This document shows, in pieces, positions 48,478 through 64,000 of a DNA stretch of 64,000 nt. Made by a program: the position numbers and the translations under genes. Each line of letters begins with the position of its first letter. Within the stretch, counting starts at the first letter, position 1. The notes beneath the pieces were generated by a model that saw only the letters and a program-made list of their open reading frames with translations, made no database searches and was not told the DNA's origin. Source of the DNA: Octopus sinensis (Eukaryota); contig NC_043010.1 in NCBI RefSeq assembly GCF_006345805.1, forward strand, positions 23,808,001-23,872,000. The letters are read 5' to 3'.

Positions 48478-49139
48478 TGGTGTGTGTGTGTGTGTGTGTA
48501 TGTATGTTATTATATACATATATATATAATATATGTATATATGTATGTATGTATGTATGTATATTATGTATGTATGTATAATGTATGTATATATATATAT
48601 ATATACATATATATTCTTTTTACTTGTTTCAGTCATTTGACTGCGGCCATGCTGGAGCACTACCTATAATCTTTATATATATAAAACTGAGAATGTGTGT
48701 CTGTCTGCCTGTCTGTCTGTTTGTTTCCCTAAAACTTGAGAACTACACAATTTTACCTTTTTGCCTAGAGCGAGCTCACAGCAATATCATATCTTCTCCA
48801 CTACGATTCCCTAAAACTTGAGAACTACACAACCAATTTCATTCAAAATTTACACATGCCTTACTTAGGGTCCATGTATTTTCATGGGCAAAATAATGCT
48901 CAACTTCTTCCTAGGGCGAGCCCATAGCAATATCATATCTTCTCCACTATATCAGTATTACGTGTTAAAAGTGAAACAAAAACATTTCTCTATTTTATGT
49001 CAGATATTTCACTTAAACAATAAAAATAATAATAACAATTGAATTATATGTAGTAAGAAATAATTAAAATCAAACCAAAGTATAATATAATCGTAACATA
49101 ACAAAAGTAAAAATAGCAATTGGTATAAAATTGCATCAA

Positions 49140-49297
49140 TGACTTGAACTTGAATAAGTGGTTTCACATGAATGGGAATAAATTAAAAATAAAATTAGCG
49201 TGCAGAAATGGAATAGTCTAGATGGATAATAAAATAAATCAAAGAAAAGACTATTGTCTATAAAGTATACAATGTAGAGAAAAAAGAAGATTTGAGC
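49140..49297 (+). pseudogene. Left part of an old, degenerate Tx1-type ORF1 (the interrupted target)
   Basis: KEKTIVYKVYNVEK/RRFEH(M) aligns with KTITYRTQD of the units and KRIIIYKTFND of the LINE; it continues at 62128. Confidence 0.6.
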
Positions 49298-51209
49298 ACA
49301 TGGCGGAACGCAAAGAGTGTGTTGGTTAGTTATTTTGCATGTGAAAATTTGGAAAAAAACTGTTAAAAAATTGTCAAAAATTGAATCGCGCGAGGCGTTT
49401 TGCCGCTGCGTGTTTGAACCTTTTATAGAAGGTGTGTCGACCCTCAAGTCATGGAGACTTACGCGGGGGTCGCCACAACAAAAAGTGACGAGTCACTTAG
49501 AATAAAAGAAGTGTTCTTTAGAAAAGAACAATTGAAGGAATACGAGAAGTTCGTCAAAAGGGAGGGTGACAGCGTGAAGCTGGTCCCGCCTGTGGAAATA
49601 GAAGAAAAAATAACAAGACGATAACGTATAGAACGCAAGATAGAAACACGAGAAAACTGGTGAGAGTGACGATTGAAGAAATAGAGAAATGTCTGGGGGA
49701 CATCATGAAAAAAGCGACTTTTGTAGACAGAGGAAAGAAATATGGTACGGTGGAGGTGAGATGCGCAACAAAGGAAGTGGCGGCCTCATTGGCTTCCACT
49801 GTCCTGAAAGCGGAAAATTTCACCATGTGGCCGACATATAAAGGAAGACGAGGGGTACGGGTAAGAGTCCCAAAGGTGCCCCCAAATATTAAAACAGAAA
49901 TGCTGGTAACAGCCATTATTGGGGCAGCAAAGAGGAAGTAGAAATAGGGTCAATTAGGAGACGAACGTTGTAAATTGGAGGGATTCGGAGTAGAGTTGTG
50001 GCTGATGGCCACAATGGAAGACATCGAAAGATTTCCCTTCCAAATAGAATAGAAAACGAAAAAACAATTAGTGTAATAGTGGAAGGCAGAAAACCGAATT
50101 GCTACCTGTGCGGTTCAAGAGGGCACATAAAAAAGGAATGTCCGCTGTATGAATTCACAGCGGAGCAAAAAGAGACACAAAGTGGAGAGAAGGAAAACAA
50201 ACACGAAGAAAGAACAGCGAAAACAAGGAAAAGGAAATAACGGAGAAACAACAAGAGAAGGGAAGTAACAGCGCACTGAAGGAAAATGAAAACAAAGGGA
50301 AGAAGATAGTAGAAAAGGAGCAAAATTCACAGGGTGCAGAAGTAGAGGAGAAGGAGCCAAGACAGAAGCAAGAGAAAGAAAAGGAAAGTACATTAAAGGA
50401 AAGAGAAAAAGCAGGAAAAGAACAAGAGAAGGAACCGAACCAAGAGAAAGGAAAAGATGGTATGCAAAAAGGAAAAGAAACAACAGGAAAGGAACTTAAG
50501 GCACAGGGTAGAGAGACGGCAGACAAAGAGCCAAAAAGACAAGAGAAGGAAAAAGAAAGAAGAGAAAGCAAAAAGAGAGAAAGAGAGAAACCGAGGGAGG
50601 AGAAAAAAGAGGAAGTAAGTCCTAAGAAAAAACTAGAGAAAACGTAGGTACGAATAGAAAATTCACTATGGAACGTTGATCCATCACAAGCACTGTGAGG
50701 AGATGGAAGATTTAATAAGCGAACAAACGGATATACGTGGGTCAGGATGGGCACCGAATGGAAAGAAACAGGTGCACTCGTCCACGAGAACGACGCCGAG
50801 AGGTTCATCGAGGCAGCTGGCGAGAAAGTGTTAAAACATATGAAATGCCGACTTACAAGGTGGCCTCGAACGATGGAAGTTTACTCAGACTTGGTAGACA
50901 TAATGGAGTATATATAAAAGAAAAGGTATTGTGAAAACTTAATTTGGAAATGATAAAAGAACTTTAAATTCGGAAAAAAAAAAAGAAATGTTGAACTTTG
51001 TAAAACTTTTGAAATGTATGTTGAAAATGTAAAAAATGTTTTATTTGGAAAATATTGATGACGAATAAAAATAAATGACGAAATGTAACCGCTCGATTTC
51101 GGGGATCGAGTGGGCATTGCACCACATTGTACAAACTTCATAATTCATTATTCATTTTCCCGATTGTATTGTCCCATCTATGTAGCCCCTAGTGGGTAAT
51201 AATAAAACA
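49298..51209 (+). mobile_element. Array unit 1: ORF1-only non-autonomous non-LTR element (1912 bp)
   Basis: Starts ACATGGCGGAACGCAAAG and ends ...GCCCCTAGTGGGTAATAATAAAACA. Near-identical to units 2-4. Confidence 0.9.
49451..50917 (+). pseudogene. Gag/ORF1-like zinc-knuckle protein, unit 1 (several small deletions)
   Basis: Fragments match the unit 4 protein; CYLCGSRGHIKKEC present. Confidence 0.8.
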
Positions 51210-53133
51210 ACATGGCGGAACGCAAAGAGTGTGTTGGTTAGTTATTTTGCATGTGAAAATTTGGAAAAAAACTGTTAAAAAATTGTCAAAAATTGAATCG
51301 CGCGAGGCGTTTGCCGCTGCGTGTTTGAACCTTTTATAGAAGGTGTGTCGACCCTCAAGTCATGGAGACTTACGCGGGGGTCGCCACAACAAAAAGTGAC
51401 GAGTCACTTAGAATAAAAGAAGTGTTCTTTAGAAAAGAACAATTGAAAGAATACGAGAAGTTCGTCAAAAGGGAGGGTGATAGCGTGAAGCTGGTCCCGC
51501 CTGTGGAAACAATAGAAGAGAAAAATAACATCACGATAACGTATAGAACGCAGATAGAAACACGAGAAAACTGGTGAGAGTGACGATTGAAGAAATAGAG
51601 AAATGTCTGGGGGACATCATGAAAAAAGCGACCTTTGTAGACAGAGAAGAAATATGGTACGGTGGAGGTGAGATGCGCAACAAAGGAAGTGGCGGCCTCA
51701 TTGGCTTCCACTGTCCTGAAAGCGGAAAATTTCACCATGTGGCCGACTTATAAAGGAAGACGAGGGGTACGGGTAAGAGTCCCAAGGTACCCCCAAATAT
51801 TAAAACAGAAATGCTGGTAACAGCCATTATTGGAGCAGCAAAAGAGGAAGTAGAAAATAGTTCAATTAAGGAGACGAACGTTGTAAATTGGAAGGGATTC
51901 GGAGTCGAGTTGTGGCTAATGGCCACAATGGAAGACATCGAAAGATTTCCCTTCCAAATAGAAATAGAAAACGAGAAGACAATTAGTGTAATAGTGGAAG
52001 GCAGAAAACCGAACTGCTACCTGTGCGGATCAAGAGGGCACATAAAAAAGGAATGTCCGCTGTATGAATTCACAGCGGAGCAAAAAGAGACACAAAGTGG
52101 AGACAAGAAAACGAACACGAAGGAAAGAACAGCGAAAACAAGGAAAAGGAAATAACGGAGAAACAACAAGAGAAGGGAAGTAACAGCGCACTGAAGGAAA
52201 ATGAAAACAAAGGGAAGAAGATAGTAGAAGAGGAGCAAAATTCACAGGGTGCAGAAGTAGTGAGAAGGAGCCAAGGCAGAAGCAAGAGAAAGAAAAGGAA
52301 AGTACATTAAAGGAAAGAGAAAAAGCAGGAAAAGAACAAGAGAAGGAACAGAACAAGAGAAAGGAAAAGATGGTATGCAAAAAGGAAAAGAAACAACAGG
52401 AAAGGAACTTAAGGCACAGGGTAGAGAGACGGCAGACAAAGAGCCAAAAAGACAAGAGAAGGAAAAAGAAAGAAGAGAAAGCAAAAAGAGAGAAAGAAGA
52501 AACCGAGGGAGAAAAAAGAGGAAGTAAGTCCTAAGAGAAAAACTAGAGAAAACGTAGGTACGAATAGAAAATACAAATACTATGGAACGTTGATCCATCA
52601 CAAGCACTGTGAGGAGATGGAAGATTTAATAAGCGCAACAAACGGATATACGTGGGTCAGGATGGGCACCGAATGGGAAGAAACAGGTGCACTCATCCAC
52701 GAGAACGACGCCGAGGCGTTCATCGAGGCAGCTGGCGAGAACGTGTTAAAACATATGAAATGCCGACTTAAAAGGTGGCCTCGAACGATGGAACTTTACT
52801 CAGATTTGGTAGACATAATGGAGTGTATAGAATAGAAAAGGTATTGTGAAAACTTAATTTGGAAATGATAAAAAGAACTTTAAATTCGGAAAAAAAAAAA
52901 AAAAAAAAAAAAGAATGTTGAACTTTGTAAAACTTTTTGAAATGTATGTTGAAAATGTAAAAAATGTTTTATTGAAAATATTGTTGACGAACAAAATTAA
53001 TTGACGAAATGTAACCGCTCGATTTCGGGGATCGAGCGGGCATTACACCACATTGTACAAACTTCATAATTCATTATTCATTCCCGATTGTATTGTCCCA
53101 TCTATGTAGCCCCTAGTGGGTAATAATAAAACA
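51210..53133 (+). mobile_element. Array unit 2 (1924 bp)
   Basis: Same termini and body as unit 1. Confidence 0.9.
51362..52835 (+). pseudogene. Gag/ORF1-like protein, unit 2 (frameshifted)
   Basis: ORF pieces 51362.., 51811.. and 52590.. match the unit 4 protein. Confidence 0.8.
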
Positions 53134-55058
53134 ACATGGCGGAACGCAAAGAGTGTGTTGGTTAGTTATTTTGCATGTGAAAATTTGGAAAAAAACTGTT
53201 AAAAAATTGTCAAAAATTGAATCGCTTGAGGCGTTTGCCGCTGCGTGTTTGAACCTTTTATAGAAGGTGTGTCGACCCTCAAGTCATGGAGACTTACGCG
53301 GGGGTCGCCACAACAAAAAGTGACGAGTCACTTAGAATAAAAGAAGTGTTTTTTAGAAAAGAACAATTGAAAGAATACGAGAAGTTCGTCAAAAGGGAGG
53401 GTGACAGCGTGAAGCTGGTCCCGCCTGTGGAAACAATAGAAGAGAAAAATAACATCACGATAACGTATAGAACGCAAGATAGAAACACGAGAAAACTGGT
53501 GAGAGTGACGATTGAAGAAATAGAGAAATGTCTGGGGGACATCATGAAAAAAGCGACTTTTGTAGACAGAGGAAAGAAATATGGTACGGTGGAGGTGAGA
53601 TGCGCAACAAAGGAAGTGGCGGCTCATTGGCTTCCACTGTCCTGAAAGCGGAAAATTTCACCATGTGGCCGACGTATAAAGGAAGACGAGGGGTACGGGT
53701 AAGAGTCCCAAAGGTACCCCCAAATATTAAAACAGAAATGCTGGTAACAGCCATTATTGGAGCAGCAAAAGAGGAAGTAGAAATAGGGTCAATTAAGGAG
53801 ACGAACGTTGTAAATTGGAAGGGATTCGGAGTCGAGTTGTGGCTGATGGCCACAATTGAAGACATCGAAAGATTTCCCTTCCAAATAGAAATAGAAAACG
53901 AAAAAACAATTAGTGTAATAGTGGAAGGCAGAAAACCGAATTGCTACCTGTGCGGTTCAAGAGGGCACATAAAAAAGGAATGTCCGCTGTATGAATTCAC
54001 AGCGGAGCAAAAAGAGACACAAAGTGGAGAGAAGGAAAACGAACACGAAGGAAAGAACAGCGAAAACAAGGAAAAGGAAATAACGGAGAAACAACAAGAG
54101 AAGGGAAGTAACAGCGCACTGAAGGAAAATGAAAACAAAGGGAAGAAGATAGTAGAAAAGGAGCAAAATTCACAGGGTGCAGAAGTAGAGGAGAAGGAGC
54201 CAAGGCAGAAGCAAGAGAAAGAAAAGGAAAGTACATTAAAGGAAAGAGAAAAAGCAGGAAAAGAACAAGAGAAGGAACAGAACCAAGAGAAAGGAAAAGA
54301 TGGTATGCAAAAAGGAAAAGAAACAACAGGAAAGGAACTTAAGGCACAGGTAGAGAGACGGCAGACAAAGAGCCAAAAAGACAAGAAAGGAAAAAGAAGA
54401 AGAGAAAGCAAAAAGAGAGAAAGAGAGAACCGAGGGAGGAGAAAAAAGAGGAAGTAAGTCCTAAGAGAAAAACTAGAGAAAACGCAGGTACGAATAGAAA
54501 ATTCAAATACTATGGAACGTTGATCCATCACAAGCACTGTGAGGAGATGGAAGATTTAATAAGCGAAACAAACGGATATACGTGGGTCAGGATGGGCACC
54601 GAATGGAAAGAAACAGGTGCACTCGTCCACGAGAACGACGCCGAGGCGTTCATCGAGGCAGCTGGCGAGAACGTGTTAAAACATATGAAATGCCGCCTTC
54701 CAAGGTGGCCTCGAACGATGGAAGTTTACTCAGATTTGGTAGACATAATGGAGTATATATAAAAGAAAAGGTATTGTGAAAACTTAATTTGGAAATGATA
54801 AAAGAACTTTAAATTCGGAAAAAAAAAAAAAAGAAATGTTGAACTTTGTAAAACTTTTTGAAATGTATGTTGAAAATGTAAAAAATGTTTTATTTGAAAA
54901 TATTGTTGACCAATTAAAAATAAATGACGAAATGTAACCGCTCGATTTCGGGGATCGAGTGGGCATTGCACCACATTGTACAAACTTCATAATTCATTAT
55001 TCATTTTCCCGATTGTATTGTCCCATCTATGTAGCCCCTAGTGGGTAATAATAAAACA
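53134..55058 (+). mobile_element. Array unit 3 (1925 bp)
   Basis: Same termini and body as unit 1. Confidence 0.9.
53286..54762 (+). pseudogene. Gag/ORF1-like protein, unit 3 (frameshifted)
   Basis: ORF pieces 53286.., 53528.. and 54520.. match the unit 4 protein. Confidence 0.8.
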
Positions 55059-56985
55059 ACATGGCGGAACGCAAAGAGTGTGTTGGTTAGTTATTTTGCA
55101 TGTGAAAATTTGGAAAAAAACTGTTAAAAAATTGTCAAAAATTGAATCGCTTGAGGCGTTTGCCGCTGCGTGTTTGAACCTTTTATAGAAGGTGTGTCGA
55201 CCCTCAAGTCATGGAGACTTACGCGGGGGTCGCCACAATAAAAAGTGACGAGTCTCTTAGAATAAGAGAAGTGTTCTTTAGAAAAGAACAATTGAAGGAA
55301 TACGAGAAGTTCGTCAAAAGGGAGGGTGACAGCGTGAAGCTGGTCCCACCTGTTGAAACAATAGAGGAGAGAAATAACAAGACGATAACGTATAGAACGC
55401 AAGATAGAAACACGAGAAAACTGGTGAGAGTGACGATTGAAGAAATAGAGAAATGTATGGGGGACATCATGAAAAAAGCGACTTTTGTAGACAGAGGAAA
55501 GAAATATGGTACGGTGGAGGTGAGATGCGGAACAAAGGAAGTGGCGGCCTCATTGGCTTCCACTGTCCTGAAAGCCGAAAATTTCACTATGTGGCCGACG
55601 TATAAAGGAAGACGAGGGGTACGGGTAAGAGTCCCAAAGGTGCCCCCAGATATTAAAACAGAAATGCTGGTAACAGCCATTATTGGAGCAGCAAAGGAGG
55701 AAGTAGAAATAGGGTCAATCAAGGAGACGAACGTTGTAAATTGGAAGGGATTCGGAGTAGAGTTGTGGCTGATGGCCACAATGGAAGACATCGAAAGATT
55801 TCCCTTCCAAATAGAAATAGAAAACGAGAAAACAATTAGTGTAATAGTGGAGGGCAGAAAACCGAATTGCTACCTGTGCGGATCAAGAGGGCACATAAAA
55901 AAGGAATGTCCGCTGTATGAATTCACAGCGGAGCAAAAAGAGACACAAAGTGGAGAGAAGGAAAACGAACACGAAGGAAAGAACAGCGAAAACAAGGAAA
56001 AGGAAATAACGGAGAAACAACAAGAGAAGGGAAGTAACAGCGCACTGAAGGAAAATGAAAACAAAGGGAAGAAGATAGTAGAAAAGGAGCAAAATTCACA
56101 GGGTGCAGAAGTAGTGGAGAAGGAGCCAAGGCAGAAGCAAGAGAAAGAAAAGGAAAGTACATTAAAGGAAAGAGAAAAAGCAGGAAAAGAACAAGAGAAG
56201 GAACAGAACCAAGAGAAAGGAAAAGATGGTATGCAAAAAGGAAAAGAAACAACAGGAAAGAACATAAGGCACAGGGTAGAGAGACGGCAGACGAAGAGCC
56301 AAAAAGACAAGAGAAGGAAAAAGAAAGAAGAGAAAGCAAAAAGAGAGAAAGAGAGAAACCGAGGGAGGAGAAAAAAGAGGAAGTAAGTCCTAAGAGAAAA
56401 ACTAGAGAAAACGTAGGTGCGAATAGAAAATTCAAATACTATGGAACGTTGATCCATCACAGGCACTGTGAGGAGATGGAAGATTTAATAAACGTAACAA
56501 ATGGATATACGTGGGTCAGGATGGGCACCGAATGGAAAGAAACAGGTGCACTCGTCCACGAGAACGACGCTGAGGCGTTCATCGAGGCAGCTGGCAGGAA
56601 CGTGACAAAACATATGAAATGCCGACTTACAAGGTGGCCACGAACGATGGAAATTTACCATGATTTGGTAGAGATAATGGAGTATATATAAAAGAAAAGG
56701 TATTGTGAAAACTTTAATTTGGAAATGATAAAAAGAACTTTAAATTCTGGAAAAAAAAAATGTTGAACTTTGTAAAATTTTTGAAATGTATGTTGAAAAT
56801 GTGTAAAATGTTTTTATTTGGAAAATATTGTTGACGAATAAAAAACAAATGACGAAATGTAACCGCTCGATTTCGGGGATCGAGTGGGCATTACACCACA
56901 TTGTACAAACTTCATAATTCATTATTCATTTTTTCCCATTGTATTGTCCCATCTATGTTCGCCCCTTGTGGGTAATAATAAAACA
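55059..56985 (+). mobile_element. Array unit 4 (1927 bp)
   Basis: Same body as units 1-3. Its 3' tail variant is identical to the LINE tail. Confidence 0.9.
55211..56691 (+). CDS. Gag/ORF1-like protein (~493 aa after repairing a 1-nt deletion near 56260): N-terminal domain, CX2CX4HX4C knuckle, E/K-rich low-complexity region, ~85-aa C-terminal domain
   Basis: The 391-aa ORF 55211..56386 joins the 80-aa ORF 56449..56691 when GGAAAG(G)AAC is restored as in units 1-3. Homologous to LINE ORF1 (RGK.YGTVEVR, VEGRKP.C..CG..GH....C). Confidence 0.75.
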
Positions 56986-57211
56986 ACATGGAGGAACGCA
57001 AATCGCGTGTGTAGTGAGTTATTATATTTTTCCTTAGTGTATATTTTCTCCGTTATATTCTACTGTGTGTCTAATTGTCTTTGTTTTTTGTTGTACAACT
57101 GTTGAAGTCAGCCTTCGTGCGAGGGATTCGTGTTGGTGTTCCCCCCTCCGTGGGGGAAAAACTATCATTATTGCGGCTTGTGCCAAGGGCTTGTTAAGCC
57201 AGTTGCTCGAG

Positions 57212-58494
57212 ATGGAATCCCCCATCTCATATTCCCCTGTGACTAGTGAAGCAGAATCACCGGCGGTGTCGCCAATGAAAAAAGATATTGCAGCTCCAGC
57301 GAAAAAATTTTCAGAAGTAGCTGGCAAGAAAATCAAAAGAATAAACGTCGAAGACCTAAAGAAATATGCAGACTGTGTGACAAAAAAGGGCACGGAAGTG
57401 ACAGTGGTCACAAACGCCCCAAAACAGGAAGAAATTGCTAAAAGAATAATAATTTATAAGACCTTTAATGATACAAAAATTTGAGGAAAAAAAAATCGAA
57501 AATTGCTTAAAACCAATAATGGATAAGATCACATACATCAATAGAGGAAAGAGATACGGCACAGTGGAGGTGCGATTCACAACAGAGGAGATAGCTAAAA
57601 AAACTATCTATGGAGCCAATAAAAGCGGAGAACATTGTTCTCCTCCCCCTGTATAGAGGAAAAAGAACATCAAAAATCACCATGAATAATATTCCGCCAG
57701 AAGCGGATGCCGAATGTCTGGTGGCAGCAGTTATGGTAGGCCTGGAGGAAAAAATAAACATCCTCCAGGCCACAGTAGAGGAAGAAGAATTCTGGAAAGG
57801 ACAGCGGATAATAATATCCATCCAGGCAGAAATTCAAACATTGGAGGAGATTCCAGAGACTCTAAAAATAAGCGAAGAAGATAGAGTAATAGTTTTCGTA
57901 GAGGGCAGAAAGCCGAGGTGCTTCGGCTGCGGCAAGAAGGGGCATGTAAGGGCGAAATGCCAACCCCAACCCAAACCGCAGGAAGCAGCTCAGCCAGGTG
58001 GAAAAGAAGAAGTGTCACCAGTAGCAGCGTCGGGCGGCCCAGAAGGGACGGCTGAAGGTGTGGAGGTGACAGAGGCAGCGGAACCAGCGACGGAGGAAAA
58101 AAAGAGCGAGGTAACGAAAAATGAGGAGGGGTGGTCAAAAATTACTAGAAAAAAAAGAAAAACTGAAACCACCCCTCCCATAGTGATCATAAAGAAGAAA
58201 AGAGAGTCGATGAACTTATTTATGGCCGTTAAGGCATCGAACAACAGACTCGGGAATGTGTTGGCAGCTATGGCCAAAGTGGAAAAAATAGGAAAAAAAA
58301 ATGACTATATAGTGTACAGAATAGGCCGGAAGGATTACGGACGGATAAAGTCCGAATTCTTTCATGACGTGGGCCCGCTCAGAATGGATATAACATCTCC
58401 ATATATATTCGAGGGCCTGCGTCAGACTCCCCCACGAGGCCCAGAAAAAGAGACAAACAAAGAAGAAAAAGAAAAAACCGAACCACTGATATAA
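57212..58494 (+). CDS. LINE ORF1 (Gag-like CCHC zinc knuckle), two apparent frameshifts in A-runs (~57478, ~57600)
   Basis: MESPISYSP...KRIIIYKTFND / FEEKKIENCL...RGKRYGTVEVRF / MEPIKAEN...EGRKPRCFGCGKKGHVRAKC. Confidence 0.85.
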
Positions 58495-58502
58495 AGTAAG
58501 TA

Positions 58503-61500
58503 ATGGATTACATTTATGTTGGTTGTTTAAATGTGCGCGGCCTGGGATCAGGCTGGAAGCAAGGTCGCTTCCTGCATGATATCAGGTCGCGTAATTTAGA
58601 TGTTATTGTTGCTACAGAAACCCGGTTAGAGGGGCCAAGAGGTCTACTCCCGCTGTTTGACGGCTACGAGAGTTTTTCTCTCCTGGCAGTCCTACAGGCG
58701 GGGGTGGGGTGTTGGTCCTATTAAAAAGAAACCGGGTTTCTGAGAAAAAGTTAATTTTTGCAGATCCAGAAGGTAGGCTGGTCGTCATGGATTTGACGTT
58801 CAGTAACGGTAAAGTTATCAGACTGGTTGCAATTTACGCACCCAACCATAGAGGGCAAAGTGATTATTTTCGTGAACTGGAAAACTTTCTTGGTACTTCG
58901 CATTCATTAGTTGTGCTAGGAGACTTTAACACAATTTGCAAAGCGGATGTAGATTGTGTTAGCTCGCGTCCAGATAGAAAAGGTAACAGTGGCTTCATGG
59001 AACTGCTAAGCCGCTTTGAGCTAGCAGATCCTTATAGGCTGGAATTTCCGAACGCTCCATTGTGGACATGGTCAAACAGCGACGGATCTTCCAGGTCATA
59101 TTTAGATAGAATACTAATTAGAAAAGTAGACAGAAATATAGCTAAGTGTCCACAGTTTTACCTGGTCAGCTACAGTGATCATAAAATGGTCACCTGTAAG
59201 CTTGACATAGATAAGGTTAAAAATAGAGGATCCGGTTACTGGAAACTTAATACGTCCCTTTTGGCGATTAAGGAGTACAAAGACCGGATTAGGACTATAA
59301 TTCAGAGGGCACTATCTGGTACCATCATTAATAACAAATGGTGGTACGCCCTCAAACGAGCCATCAAATTCGAGTCAATTAGATATAGCATAGGAGTAGT
59401 GGCTAGAGAGGCTAGGAGGGAAACTACTCTAGTTAAGGAATTAGAGGAAGCCTTGACAACTGGCTCCGCGGCTCAGGTGACGTCCAAGAGACTGGTGTTA
59501 AACCAGCACCTCGAGGCCAAACACATGGGCTGCATTGTCAGGGCTAGGATCCGCCATATGGGTTGTGAAGGAATTAACGCCGTGAGATGGGTGGAAGCTC
59601 AGCATGGTAACGATGCCACGATTCGATCTTTGACGAACCAACAAGGTGAGTTGATAAACGAGCCCGAGGAGATGTGCGAGGCCTTTCAGGAGCACTTCGC
59701 TCAGCTTTTCGGTGAGTGCGGCGGACTGGATAGGAGAAGGGCCTTTACGGACATCCTCGACGGGCTGCCGCGCTTATCGGGGCGAGATGCGGAGGGCTGT
59801 GAAGGGCCAATCACGCCTGGGGAGGTGGTTGAGGCGATGGCGGACTGCGGCGCGGGCAAGGCGCCGGATTTAGATGGTCTACCCTATGAGTTATATAAGA
59901 GTATGCCAGACTTGTTCGGGCACCTACCGGCGGAGGTCTATGCGAACTGGCAGCAGAACGGGCTCATACCCAGATCTGTGCGCCGGGGAGTAGTGACACT
60001 CGTCAGAAAGGACCCGAGCAAGGGGGAGTGCATTGATAATTTTAGGCCCATCACTCTGCTAAACACAGAGTTGAAGATTTTGGCCAAAGTGTTATCGAAA
60101 AGATTGGCGCGTGTCGCGGATGGTCTGATCGGGGAGGTACAGACATGTGCCGTTCCGGGCAGAACCATTCAGGATAATCTCCATCTTATGCGGTACACTA
60201 TAGAGGGGTTTAATAGCGATTCTGGCAAGGGTGGGGCACTGGTCCATTTAGACCAATCTAAAGCATTTGATAGGGTCGACCATCGCTACCTGGTATCTGC
60301 CCTGGCACAGTTCGGGCTGAGCCTCGGCTTCCTCAGGTGGATTATCCAAATTTACGACAACATCGACTCGGTAGTTCGGGTGAACGGCTTCTTGTCGAAG
60401 CCGTTCAACATCAAACGCTCGGTTCGTCAAGGGTGTCCGCTCTCCCCGCTTTTGTATGTGATGGCTCTTGAGCCATTACTGCGAAAACTGAGCGGCATCC
60501 CGAGACAGCCAGGTAGTGGAAAATCGGTGTCAGCGTACGCGGATATCACCATCATCGTAACCGAAATGGACCACATACGTAAAGTAGGCAAGGCCATAGA
60601 GGTTTACGAGACGGTGACAGGAGCAAAAGTTAATCGCGAAAAGTCAGTCGGCTTGCAACTCGGCACCTGGAGAGGCAAGTCGATGCCTCCTGACAGCGTC
60701 GTGGGACGTTTGACGGAGGGTCCGATTAAGTTGCTAGGGGTTTGGTTCGGTCCAGACCTCCAAATAGAGAAGAATTGGGGCGAGGTATCGAGCAGGGTGG
60801 CTGCAGTAACCAAGACCTGGTCTTGGCGGTGGCTATCCCTGAAAGGGAGGGCGGAGGTAGCCAATGTGTTTATCGCATCGGTTATCACCTACCGCCTTTC
60901 CGTCGTTCCTTGCCCTGATTCGTGGTTGATCAAGTTGGAAAGACAGCTCTTCTACTTCTTGTGGAAGGGCGGGAAACCACTTGTGAAACGCTCTACTTGC
61001 TGTCAACAACCGTTAAAGGGTGGGCTAGGGATGCCTTGGCTGATGATGCGCAGACATGCGCTGAGGTTAAGACATCTGTGGCTCTACCTGGATGGTGAAC
61101 GGGTGTGGTCTCCGCTAGCAAAACTGATGTTTCCCAAGTTCACTAGTTTCGGTGGATGGGAAACCTGGCTGAATCGTAGATCGAAACTAGGCACATGGTA
61201 CACGGAGTGTCGCAAGGCTCTTCTGCTATTCCGTCGCTCGGGCAACGCCTGCGGTGGGGGTTCCACCACATTCTTCTATAGAGGGTTGGTAGAGGCGGAA
61301 TGTGAAGATACCTTGGGGGAAACCCTAGGTCTCGACGATAATCAGCTGGCCAGTCTGTTCCGACGTACGTTCGAGCCGAAGACACTGGACAACTTCCAGA
61401 AGTCTCTGGCATGGCAATGCTACAGAGGAGCTCTACCTGTTCGGGATAAACTCGCAAGGCACGGTGGCCAAGACAATCCGATATGTCCAAGATGCGAGCG

Positions 61501-61885
61501 GGATAGGGAAACCGTCCCGCACGCTATTGTTCATTGTTCGGACGTGTCTGAGGTGTGGGTTTATGCCGAACAGCTGTTGTCAAGCACACGAAGAGTACAG
61601 CTGTCGACTGAATCGATTACAAAAATTGACCCACCAGATTTCCTCGCGAAAGAAGGTAAGAATTGTTTTCTCGTAGTAGTAGCAATTGCGAAAGAGGTGA
61701 TATGGAAGACGAGAATGAAAGGTTTACAGTCAGGCAAGTTCATCTCCAACCCTGGTTTGATGAATTATTTCATCTTTCACCTGAAAAGGAAGATAGGGCT
61801 GGAGAGAATATGCCTGACTAGGAGAGTGTATGAAGAACGATGGAAAAATGTAGCACGAAAGTTGCGAATGGATGTTACCACATAA
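58503..61885 (+). CDS. LINE ORF2: AP endonuclease, reverse transcriptase and C-terminal CCHC zinc finger; one frameshift near 58680
   Basis: APE motifs LNVRGL, TETR, IYAPN, GDFN, LDRIL, SDHK; GYWKLNTSLL; RT motifs FRPITLLN, LDQSKAFDRV, VRQGCPLSPLLY, YAD(-)I, KGGLG; CPRC-X8-H-X4-C. Confidence 0.95.
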
Positions 61886-62127
61886 ATGTAAAACCGGACG
61901 AAACCAAAGTATCAGTGGGGAGGCGGGGCTCGTGGAGTCCGAGCTAAACCCGCTCCCACTCCATCCGTAATGTCTTCCGGTCTGTGCTCCATTCGATTTT
62001 TTATATTTTGTAATTTTTTGTAAATTTTTAAAATTCGCTTTGTTGTAAAACCCATTCGTGTATCTGACCCCATCATCAGATTGTATTGTCCCATCTATGT
62101 TCGCCCCTTGTGGGTAATAATAAAACA

Positions 62128-62445
62128 ACATGGAGGAAAGCACCTTCGAAAAGTGTCTTTGTGCGACTATGAAAGATATCTAATCAGAGGCGGTAAAGTC
62201 GCCACAATAGAAGCAAGGTTCGAGTCAACGGAGCGTGCAAGGGAGTATTCGACTCGAACTTGCAAAGTGGAATTATATTTTACTTTTCCCTTTATATCTG
62301 GGACGTAGGACGTCCGGAAAAAAATTTTTAATGCATCCCCCACCCCAGAAGTAGAGGTAGGCTGTATTGTAGCCACGCTTCTATACAAGAGGGAGGGCAA
62401 GATACAATTGATCGAAATTACAAGAGACGGGCTAACAATTCCAGT
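62128..62445 (+). pseudogene. Right part of the old degenerate Tx1-type ORF1 (continuation of 49140-49297)
   Basis: MEESTFEKCLCATMKDI / YLIRGGKVATIEARFESTERA / LYLGRRTS / PEVEVGCIVATLL align with IEKCMGDIMKKATFVDRGKKYGTVEVRC..TYKGRR..PPDIKTEMLVTAII. Confidence 0.75.
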
Positions 62446-62799
62446 CTGTTATATATTTTGAGTATTGTTATCACTAGCGATATCAACATATAACTTTGTA
62501 TTTCGTATTTTATGTGTAGATGTATATATATAGAAGTACATGTAATATGTACACATATATATACACATATATACATGCACTAGCACTATGACCCGGCAAG
62601 GCCGGGTCTTTAATGCTAGTATATATATATATATCATCGACCGCATATACTCAATGCTTGTTTTCTTGTTCGTTGGTTCGCTGCGTACATCGCTCTAGAG
62701 ACGACTCCTGCATAACACTGGATGTTAGAATACCTGAAAGTCATATGCAAGTGAGACACCATGCTTCCAGTCCCATCCAAGGGTGGTGGATACCGACAT

Positions 62800-63661: not shown

Positions 63662-64000
63662 GGCGGCGAGCTGGTAGAAACGTTAGCACGCCGGACGAAA
63701 TGCTTAGCGGCATTTCGTCTGCCGTTACGTTCTTAGTTCAAATTCTGCCGAGGTCGATTTTGCCTTTCATCCTTTCGGGGCCGATTAAAGAAGTACCAGT
63801 TACGCACTAGGGTCGATATAATCGACTTAATCCGTTTGTCTGTCCTTGTTCGTCCTCTCTATGTTTAGCCCCGTGTGGGTAGTGAAGAAATAGGTATTTC
63901 GTCTGCCGTTACGTTATGAGTTCAAATTCCTCCGAGGTCAACTTTGCCTTTCATCCTTTTGGGGTTGATAAATTAAGTACCAGTTACGCACTGGGGTCGA
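63662..64000 (+). mobile_element. Family A SINE plus tandem partial copy (runs off the window)
   Basis: Same head, central domain and Tx1-like tail as 3659-3892 and 18855-19262. Confidence 0.88.

What the first reader, a model, noticed from the sequence alone, without database searches (positions are those of the whole stretch)
49230..62445. The array interrupts the ORF1 of a third, older relative exactly at the junction motif
Seen: joining 49297 to 62128 gives ...KEKTIVYKVYNVEK/RRFEH-MEESTFEKCLCATMKDI/YLIRGGKVATIEARF.... This aligns colinearly with the unit protein (KTITYRTQDRNTRKLVRVTIEEIEKCMGDIMKKATFVDRGKKYGTVEVRC) and with the LINE ORF1. The left boundary ACATGGCGGAACGCA and the right boundary ACATGGAGGAAAGCA match at 13 of 15 nt, like a target-site duplication that also mimics the elements' own 5' end. 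Inference: the founding insertion hit a target-like motif inside a related retrotransposon's ORF1 (H-M-E-E codons), so one LINE family is nesting in and disabling a relative.
Basis: partly seen in the sequence, partly recalled or inferred. Interest (0 to 1): 0.8.

Follow-up and report, generated by a model that had tools for sequence, protein, structure and literature searches.

The report
LINE trains parked inside a Helitron
Five retrotransposons are stacked at one base inside a common rolling-circle transposon that carries the long-dead remains of an older relative; the same base is hit in many copies across the genome, and a natural deletion shows that the DNA upstream is needed to set the landing spot, possibly because it acts as a promoter.

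Summary
Observation confirmed, interpretation partly corrected. The 12.8-kb array (four ORF1-only units plus one EN-RT LINE) sits between two flanks that are adjoined in empty copies elsewhere (21 of 30). At least 16 of the first 100 of 1,249 motif matches are filled at this same base. The flanks encode a real ORF1 remnant (51.7 bits; best of 660 shuffles 2.3). But the host is a non-autonomous Helitron carrying a truncated, frameshifted remnant, so no live LINE is disabled. The 13/15 match is a ~15-bp target duplication overwritten by each RNA's own inherited 5' leader. Insertions are independent, not Helitron cargo, and trains grow at the upstream end. A host deletion brings a different sequence to the same position; 21 of 28 insertions at that sequence are in the deletion form, 0 in the far commoner undeleted form, 7 unresolved. 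So upstream host DNA is needed; the motif alone is not enough. It works like Tx1-Mar and tandem R1 arrays. The scan noted this system before on other DNA of this genome.

The parts
48670..49297 (+). Left arm of a non-autonomous HLE1-type Helitron (starts A|TC); short subfamily
   Evidence: family copies about 4% apart
49220..49297 (+). Left part of the old LINE remnant: AGATGG start, then the deletion joint that removed ~500 bp of 5'UTR and ORF1 start, then ORF1 codons IKEKTIVYKVYNVEK..RRFEH
   Evidence: long subfamily keeps the missing part
49255..49264 (+). TGTCTATAAA, TATA-like motif 33 nt upstream of the insertion base; candidate positioning or promoter element (role inferred)
   Evidence: same spacing in the deletion variant and at one single-copy off-host site; not at 7 other off-host sites
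49298..51209 (+). ORF1-only unit A, copy U1 (clade-1 body, first ~78 nt of U4 type)
51210..53133 (+). ORF1-only unit A, copy U2
53134..55058 (+). ORF1-only unit A, copy U3 (clade-1 body, first ~94 nt of U4 type)
55059..56985 (+). ORF1-only unit A, copy U4 (different subfamily); ORF1 with zf-CCHC from 55211
56986..62127 (+). Full-length L1-group (probably Tx1-clade) LINE: frameshifted ORF1 from 57212; ORF2 EN-RT-zf from 58503 to 61885 with one frameshift near its start; no poly(A); tail ...GTGGGTAATAATAAAACA
62128..62142 (+). Right copy of the target (ACATGGAGGAAAGCA), host-type
62128..62430 (+). Right part of the ORF1 remnant (MEESTFEK...IQLIEIT), frameshifted, ends before the zinc knuckle
62431..62455 (+). 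Site 2 (CTAAC^AATTCCAG): unused here, used in host copies where a ~310-bp deletion puts it 33 nt behind TATAAA
62590..62619 (+). Helitron 3' end: hairpin GACCCGGC/GCCGGGTC and CTAG|T

Best explanation
A LINE and several partner elements that encode only ORF1 have inserted again and again at one base of a high-copy non-autonomous Helitron, inside the dead remnant of an older related LINE, and build mixed head-to-tail trains that grow at the upstream end; the LINE's enzyme likely moves them all. Steps: (1) An ancient relative became part of the Helitron and lost its 3' part; the Helitron amplified the remnant, and a further deletion made the short form seen here (structure shown; order of events inferred). 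(2) The LINE ORF2 likely nicks at C^ACATGG and cuts the top strand ~15 nt downstream (TSD length shown at off-host sites; enzymology inferred from standard TPRT). (3) Element RNAs begin 4-7 nt upstream of the nick, so they carry the target at their 5' end (shown by leaders at off-host sites). The cDNA end likely anneals into the duplicated target, which gives the imperfect 13/15 repeat. (4) Each newcomer lands right behind the host's left arm and copies the 5' end of its right neighbour (shown). (5) Site choice is bipartite. An upstream host element fixes a window about 25-37 nt behind TGTCTATAAA (need for upstream DNA shown; which bases act is inferred). A lineage-specific local preference, ACA or ATTC, picks the base (shown; endonuclease or RNA 3' tag not separated).
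For: Empty and filled sites. 18 of the top 30 LINE tails end at site 1 and 4 at site 2. Of the first 30 of 301 exact tails, 9 are at the host site, 11 inside trains, 10 elsewhere, mostly short or truncated. Of 64 unit-A 5' ends, 23 lie on the host left arm, 32 behind another tail, 9 elsewhere. Mixed trains reach 36 kb and 9 elements in one Helitron. Independence: in 55 of 55 pairs of B-bearing loci the hosts differ more (median 4.0%) than the B elements (1.3%), and 13 such hosts are not a clade. Rare host variants ACTTGG and ATATGG stand on both sides (L119, L122). Upstream growth: locus-specific leaders run leftward across families (C3c, C1 train, L289, L297), and window U1-U3 have clade-1 bodies with U4-type first 78-94 nt. 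Upstream need: of 28 tail+site-2 junctions, 21 are in the deletion form (11 read in one locus, 10 paired by strand and distance), 0 in undeleted hosts, 7 unresolved. Yet 96 of the first 100 of 2,047 site-2 matches have the undeleted context, against 194 deletion-joint matches. Two 5'-truncated LINEs (L238, L239) also sit in the deletion form.
Against: Local sequence matters too: 15 of 41 ACATGG hosts against 1 of 59 ACCTGG hosts are filled (Fisher p=3e-6). Site-2 LINEs are their own subclade with a few endonuclease changes. Only 1 of 8 independent off-host full-length insertions has TATAAA at the spacing, so TATA is not required for insertion as such. The long subfamily keeps the same TATAAA yet 0 of 30 copies are filled, but this is confounded with ACC. 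The identical 5' joint of B in 13 hosts and the frequent right-end position of the LINE are not fully explained. U1-U3 share 5 private substitutions, so part of this array may be local duplication. One site-2 train (C2a) has a different upstream deletion and could be an undeleted host hit and later deleted.
Confidence: 0.75

Rival explanations
1. One reading: the endonuclease reads the ACATGGAGGAA motif itself; elements mimic it at their 5' ends and so nest into each other and disable a related LINE.
For: ACA is favoured over ACC. Off-host sites of the site-1 lineage mostly start ACA. All six window junctions carry the motif.
Against: Newcomers landed upstream where the motif was absent although an intact motif lay at the right end (L037, L224, L282). 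A different sequence is used in the deletion form (21 of 28) and not in undeleted hosts. The relative is a truncated remnant in a Helitron.
Confidence: 0.12
2. One or a few insertions were copied as Helitron cargo, so the shared base reflects descent and not targeting.
For: 13 loci share one odd B 5' joint, and the order B-A-LINE recurs in 6 loci.
Against: Host distance exceeds B distance in 55 of 55 pairs. B-A-LINE loci differ in LINE subfamily (L281 is 16% apart in the 5' part) and in joints. Trains have many different compositions.
Confidence: 0.05
3. Targeting is RNA-guided: host-derived sequence at the RNA 5' leader or 3' read-through pairs with the target, as proposed for R1, with no protein tether or promoter involved.
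For: Leaders are inherited and lineage-specific; site-2 units form a clade (support 0.998) and return to deletion-form hosts or ATTC/ATC sites. PMC2718515 section 15 proposes flanking 28S sequence on R1 transcripts.
Against: Leaders seen reach only 4-10 nt upstream, and GCTAAC is also present upstream of site 2 in undeleted hosts, so they do not explain the exclusion of those hosts.
Confidence: 0.2

Closest known systems
Tx1-Mar and SINEU-3 of crocodilians (Kojima 2015, PMC4494074; passages and section 20 read); Xenopus Tx1L in Tx1D (one sentence in PMC6719617; primary paper not held)
   Same: LINE plus non-autonomous partners prefer fixed positions in a non-autonomous DNA transposon; tandem insertions sandwich a ~16-bp TSD; transcription from the flanking transposon was proposed.
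   Different: Host here is a Helitron; the site lies in the remnant of an older related LINE; partners encode ORF1; trains reach 9 or more elements; a natural deletion separates position from sequence.
Drosophila R1 tandem arrays and insertion-site rearrangements (Stage and Eickbush 2009, PMC2718515; section 11 part 1 and section 15 read)
   Same: 14-bp TSD; arrays grow by insertion into the TSD at the 5' end of the resident element; upstream target sequence on the RNA gives precise small deletions or TSD-plus-leader joints.
   Different: R1 targets 28S rDNA by sequence; here the target is a selfish repeat, several families share it, and upstream position is needed.
HAL1, HeT-A, Ag-Sponge: ORF1-present bipartite LINEs (PMC5786205, passage read)
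   Same: Units A, A2, B, B2 encode only ORF1 and share the LINE's ~50-bp tail.
   Different: ORF1s of A-type, B-type and LINE are only 28-38% identical to each other, so they are not deletion products of this LINE, and they share a fixed target.
Dictyostelium TRE5-A (review PMC5911963, passages read)
   Same: APE-RT-ZF element placed by distance from a landmark; ORF1 binds TFIIIB including TBP.
   Different: TRE5 inserts upstream of Pol III genes in opposite orientation; here insertion is downstream of a TATA-like motif, in the same orientation, and no tether is shown.

Membership tests
HLE1 Helitron, non-autonomous (host) | 5' TC, inserted after A | tested here: met
   37 of 48 distinct 5' ends preceded by A (crude pattern, slips in TA/TC runs); window A|TC at 48670; definition PMC11417382
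HLE1 Helitron, non-autonomous (host) | 3' hairpin, CTRR end, followed by T | tested here: met
   CTAG followed by T in 63 of 65 ends; hairpin folds at -15.1 kcal/mol
HLE1 Helitron, non-autonomous (host) | Autonomous RepHel partner with the same ends | not tested
   no search made
   homology stops at profile position ~175 in short and long copies; Helitron end follows
L1 group LINE | ORF1 plus ORF2 with APE endonuclease, RT, C-terminal zinc finger | tested here: met
   Pfam Exo_endo_phos, RVT_1, zf-RVT; all 8 PDB hits of the EN are L1 ORF2 or L1-derived endonucleases
Tx1 clade | RT phylogeny with Tx1L, Keno, Kibi references | not testable with these tools
   no named reference found; nearest named relative is a hypothetical Argonauta protein, 64%; Tx1 label rests on recalled features
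Tx1 clade | Target preference with ~15-bp TSD | tested here: met
ORF1-present bipartite LINEs (HAL1-like) | ORF1 only, partner's 3' tail | tested here: met
   zf-CCHC
ORF1-present bipartite LINEs (HAL1-like) | Derived by internal deletion from the mobilising LINE | tested here: not met
   ORF1 identity to the LINE 32-35%; source LINEs not found
Position-targeted elements (TRE5-like) | Fixed distance from a landmark regardless of local sequence | tested here: inconclusive
   met in the deletion form and B-joint hosts; local ACA or ATTC preference remains; 1 of 8 off-host sites fits
Position-targeted elements (TRE5-like) | Protein tether to a transcription factor | not testable with these tools
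   needs biochemistry

The most novel reading that the evidence does not exclude
An animal APE-type LINE is steered by an active TATA promoter rather than by its cut sequence. A deletion in a Helitron created a chimeric promoter from the Helitron arm and TATAAA codons of a dead relative's ORF1. The LINE and a guild of distantly related ORF1-only elements land ~6 nt behind its start site, take their RNA 5' ends from it, and queue up there, each newcomer taking over the promoter.
Probability: 0.25. Interest if true: 0.8.

Novelty: new variant of a known kind. Interest (0 to 1): 0.55.

Why it matters
Target choice of APE-type LINEs is usually credited to the endonuclease's cut sequence. Here natural host variants (undeleted, deletion form, long form, ACA or ACC, B-joint) separate upstream position from local sequence in over a thousand copies, so the question can be tested directly. 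It also shows a Helitron serving as a multicopy safe harbour for a guild of retroelements. I found no report of Helitron-targeting LINEs or of this cephalopod system in the listings or in the passages of PMC13282606. The library lacks most subscription papers and Repbase, and no supplements were read.

Tried and rejected
Helitron cargo as the main cause: rejected. Plain TSD reading of the 13/15 match: rejected. TATA as a general requirement: not supported, 1 of 8 off-host full-length sites; TATAAA conservation in filled against empty hosts had no power (27 of 28 empties intact). Long against short arm: 0 of 30 long copies filled (27 independent; p=0.02 against 16 of 100) and 45 of 45 filled left arms short, but confounded with ACC, so inconclusive. 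A-to-G editing in the window units: no excess (A>G 3-9, G>A 2-12 per unit). Expression: no RNA holder listed; contigs of four guessed-RNA runs cover unit A but cannot show start, strand or level. Bacterial promoter scan is not applicable. The single-copy off-host TATA site has only two matches, likely haplotypes, and its original downstream sequence is lost. Naming the clade through homologue names failed. The PDB search of the RT stretch was mis-framed and not repeated. A look-up of earlier notes by the right flank sequence gave nothing.
Full report
Anatomy. Window 49298-62127 holds four ~1.92-kb units (49298, 51210, 53134, 55059) and a 5.14-kb LINE (56986-62127), head to tail. The units encode only an ORF1 with a CCHC knuckle; the LINE has ORF1 and an EN-RT-zf ORF2. 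All end in ...GTGGGTAATAATAAAACA without poly(A). The genome is 2.72 Gb. The nearest named ORF2 relative is from Argonauta, so an octopus is likely (inferred).

The observation. Both flanks belong to one repeat. Of 30 loci found with the right flank, 21 have the left flank adjoined and 9 (self included) carry a LINE or B-family tail at the same base. With the left flank, 27 of 30 are empty. Of 1,249 exact motif matches, 16 of the first 100 are filled (counted by hand from the listing). The ORF1 homology is real: 51.7 bits against at most 2.3 for 660 shuffles, and 25-35% identity to the active ORF1s. It needs frameshifts and stops before the zinc knuckle.

What the host is. It starts A|TC at 48670 and ends with a hairpin and CTAG|T at 62619 (37 of 48 and 63 of 65 ends), which fits the HLE1 definition. 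A longer subfamily (1,421 first-look candidates) keeps ~500 bp more: a 5'UTR beginning AGATGGAG and the ORF1 start. So the third relative is an old LINE 5' part fixed in a Helitron. Nothing live is disabled.

A guild, not one event. Of the top 30 LINE tails, 18 end at site 1, 4 at a second host position, 1 at a B 5' end, 7 elsewhere. In genome order, 20 of the first 30 of 301 exact tails are at the host site or inside trains; the 10 others are mostly short or truncated. Of 64 unit-A 5' ends, 23 follow the host arm, 32 follow another tail (one of them an off-host tandem) and 9 lie elsewhere (64 of 65 matches classified). Trains mix A, A2, A3, B, B2 and LINE; one Helitron holds 9 elements over 36 kb. 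A-type, B-type and LINE ORF1s are only 28-38% identical, so the shared factor is likely the LINE ORF2 acting in trans.

Independent insertions. Thirteen loci share an odd B joint, which suggested cargo copying. Their hosts are not a clade, and in 55 of 55 pairs among 11 of them the host distance exceeds the B distance (4.0% against 1.3%; L037 and L224 were left out because their B is interrupted or divergent).

The 13/15 repeat. Off-host insertions show a 14-19 bp TSD followed by the element's own leader, which often begins with host letters from upstream of the nick (GAAC, TTGAAC, GCTGCC). So the RNA starts 4-7 nt upstream of the nick. At the host site TSD and leader merge into one imperfect 15-mer, as in R1 joints. 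An internal promoter that starts upstream and a host promoter both fit these leaders.

Direction of growth. Locus-specific leaders run leftward across families while the right host flank keeps its own letters (C3c, C1 train, L289, L297). In the window, U1-U3 have clade-1 bodies but U4-type first 78-94 nt. In L037, L224 and L282 newcomers entered the first bases of B, though an intact motif lay further right. U1-U3 share 5 private changes, so local duplication or one donor may account for part of this array.

What sets the site. A host form lacks ~310 bp, which puts CTAAC^AATTCC 33 nt behind TGTCTATAAA, the same distance as site 1. It has 194 joint matches, 14 of the first 99 filled (one unrelated row dropped). 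The same sequence has 2,047 matches, 96 of the first 100 in undeleted context. Of 28 tail+site-2 junctions, 21 are in the deletion form, none in an undeleted host, 7 unresolved. Two of the 21 are 5'-truncated, so the effect is not just 5' annealing. Against a pure position rule: ACA is filled in 15 of 41 and ACC in 1 of 59; site-2 LINEs form a subclade with a few endonuclease changes; and only 1 of 8 off-host full-length sites has TATAAA at that spacing, although that site matches all 10 letters, has ATTGG upstream and was hit twice. The long form is unfilled (0 of 30), confounded with ACC. Best reading: an upstream element sets a window and a lineage-specific local preference picks the base. 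A promoter tether is possible but unproven.

Comparison. It works like Tx1-Mar with SINEU-3, R1 arrays and HAL1-type partners, and resembles TRE5 in position dependence. Tx1 membership was not tested by phylogeny. New: a Helitron host, a target inside a relative's remnant, a multi-family ORF1-only guild, and the natural deletion test. Earlier notes of this scan describe the same system on other DNA; they were used as leads only. Verdict: real, a new variant of a known kind, interest 0.55.

Noticed in passing
window 63835-63895 and many loci (L170, L174, L176): The abundant SINE ends in a tail close to the LINE and unit tails (CCCC..GTGGGTA..AAGAAATA) and shows 14-18 bp TSDs, so it likely uses a sister LINE.
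   Followed up: partly
L033, L035-L038, L209-L211, L215, L216, L218, L220, L224: Family B has an identical 5' joint that removes 8-11 host bases in 13 independently filled hosts, like the precise 9-bp deletion of melanogaster-type R1.
   Followed up: partly
L210, L214, L215, L216, L220: In the 5 mixed trains of the unbiased sample the LINE is always rightmost, and B leftmost in 4 of 4; not explained by age alone.
   Followed up: partly
L174/L175 (C8846, C6142): Single-copy site with ATTGG and TGTCTATAAA 33 nt upstream received two full-length elements; it may be a host gene promoter.
   Followed up: partly
L159-L162 (C3) and L163, L164, L213, L295 (C1): Very long trains (36 kb; more than 30 kb) with blocks of near-identical elements, suggesting local re-insertion or unequal crossing over.
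   Followed up: partly
L034, L240, L242: Truncated LINE plus host right arm with no host left arm upstream: possible 3' transduction or later deletion.
   Followed up: no
L180, L198, L200-L202, L204, L205, L208; L190, L207: Further Helitron forms with different middles that lack site 1.
   Followed up: no
LINE copies L033, L082, L102, L281 against window 56986-58400: LINE subfamilies differ by 15-25% in 5'UTR and ORF1 but by 1-5% in ORF2, which suggests 5' part exchange.
   Followed up: no
L165/L166 (C25): 296-bp LINE 3' fragments repeated inside a related LINE at an ACATAGGG site.
   Followed up: no
window 55211-55930: Unit ORF1 resembles clusters with ZCCHC3-type RNA-binding domains in the protein atlas (score 0.90); a lead only.
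   Followed up: no
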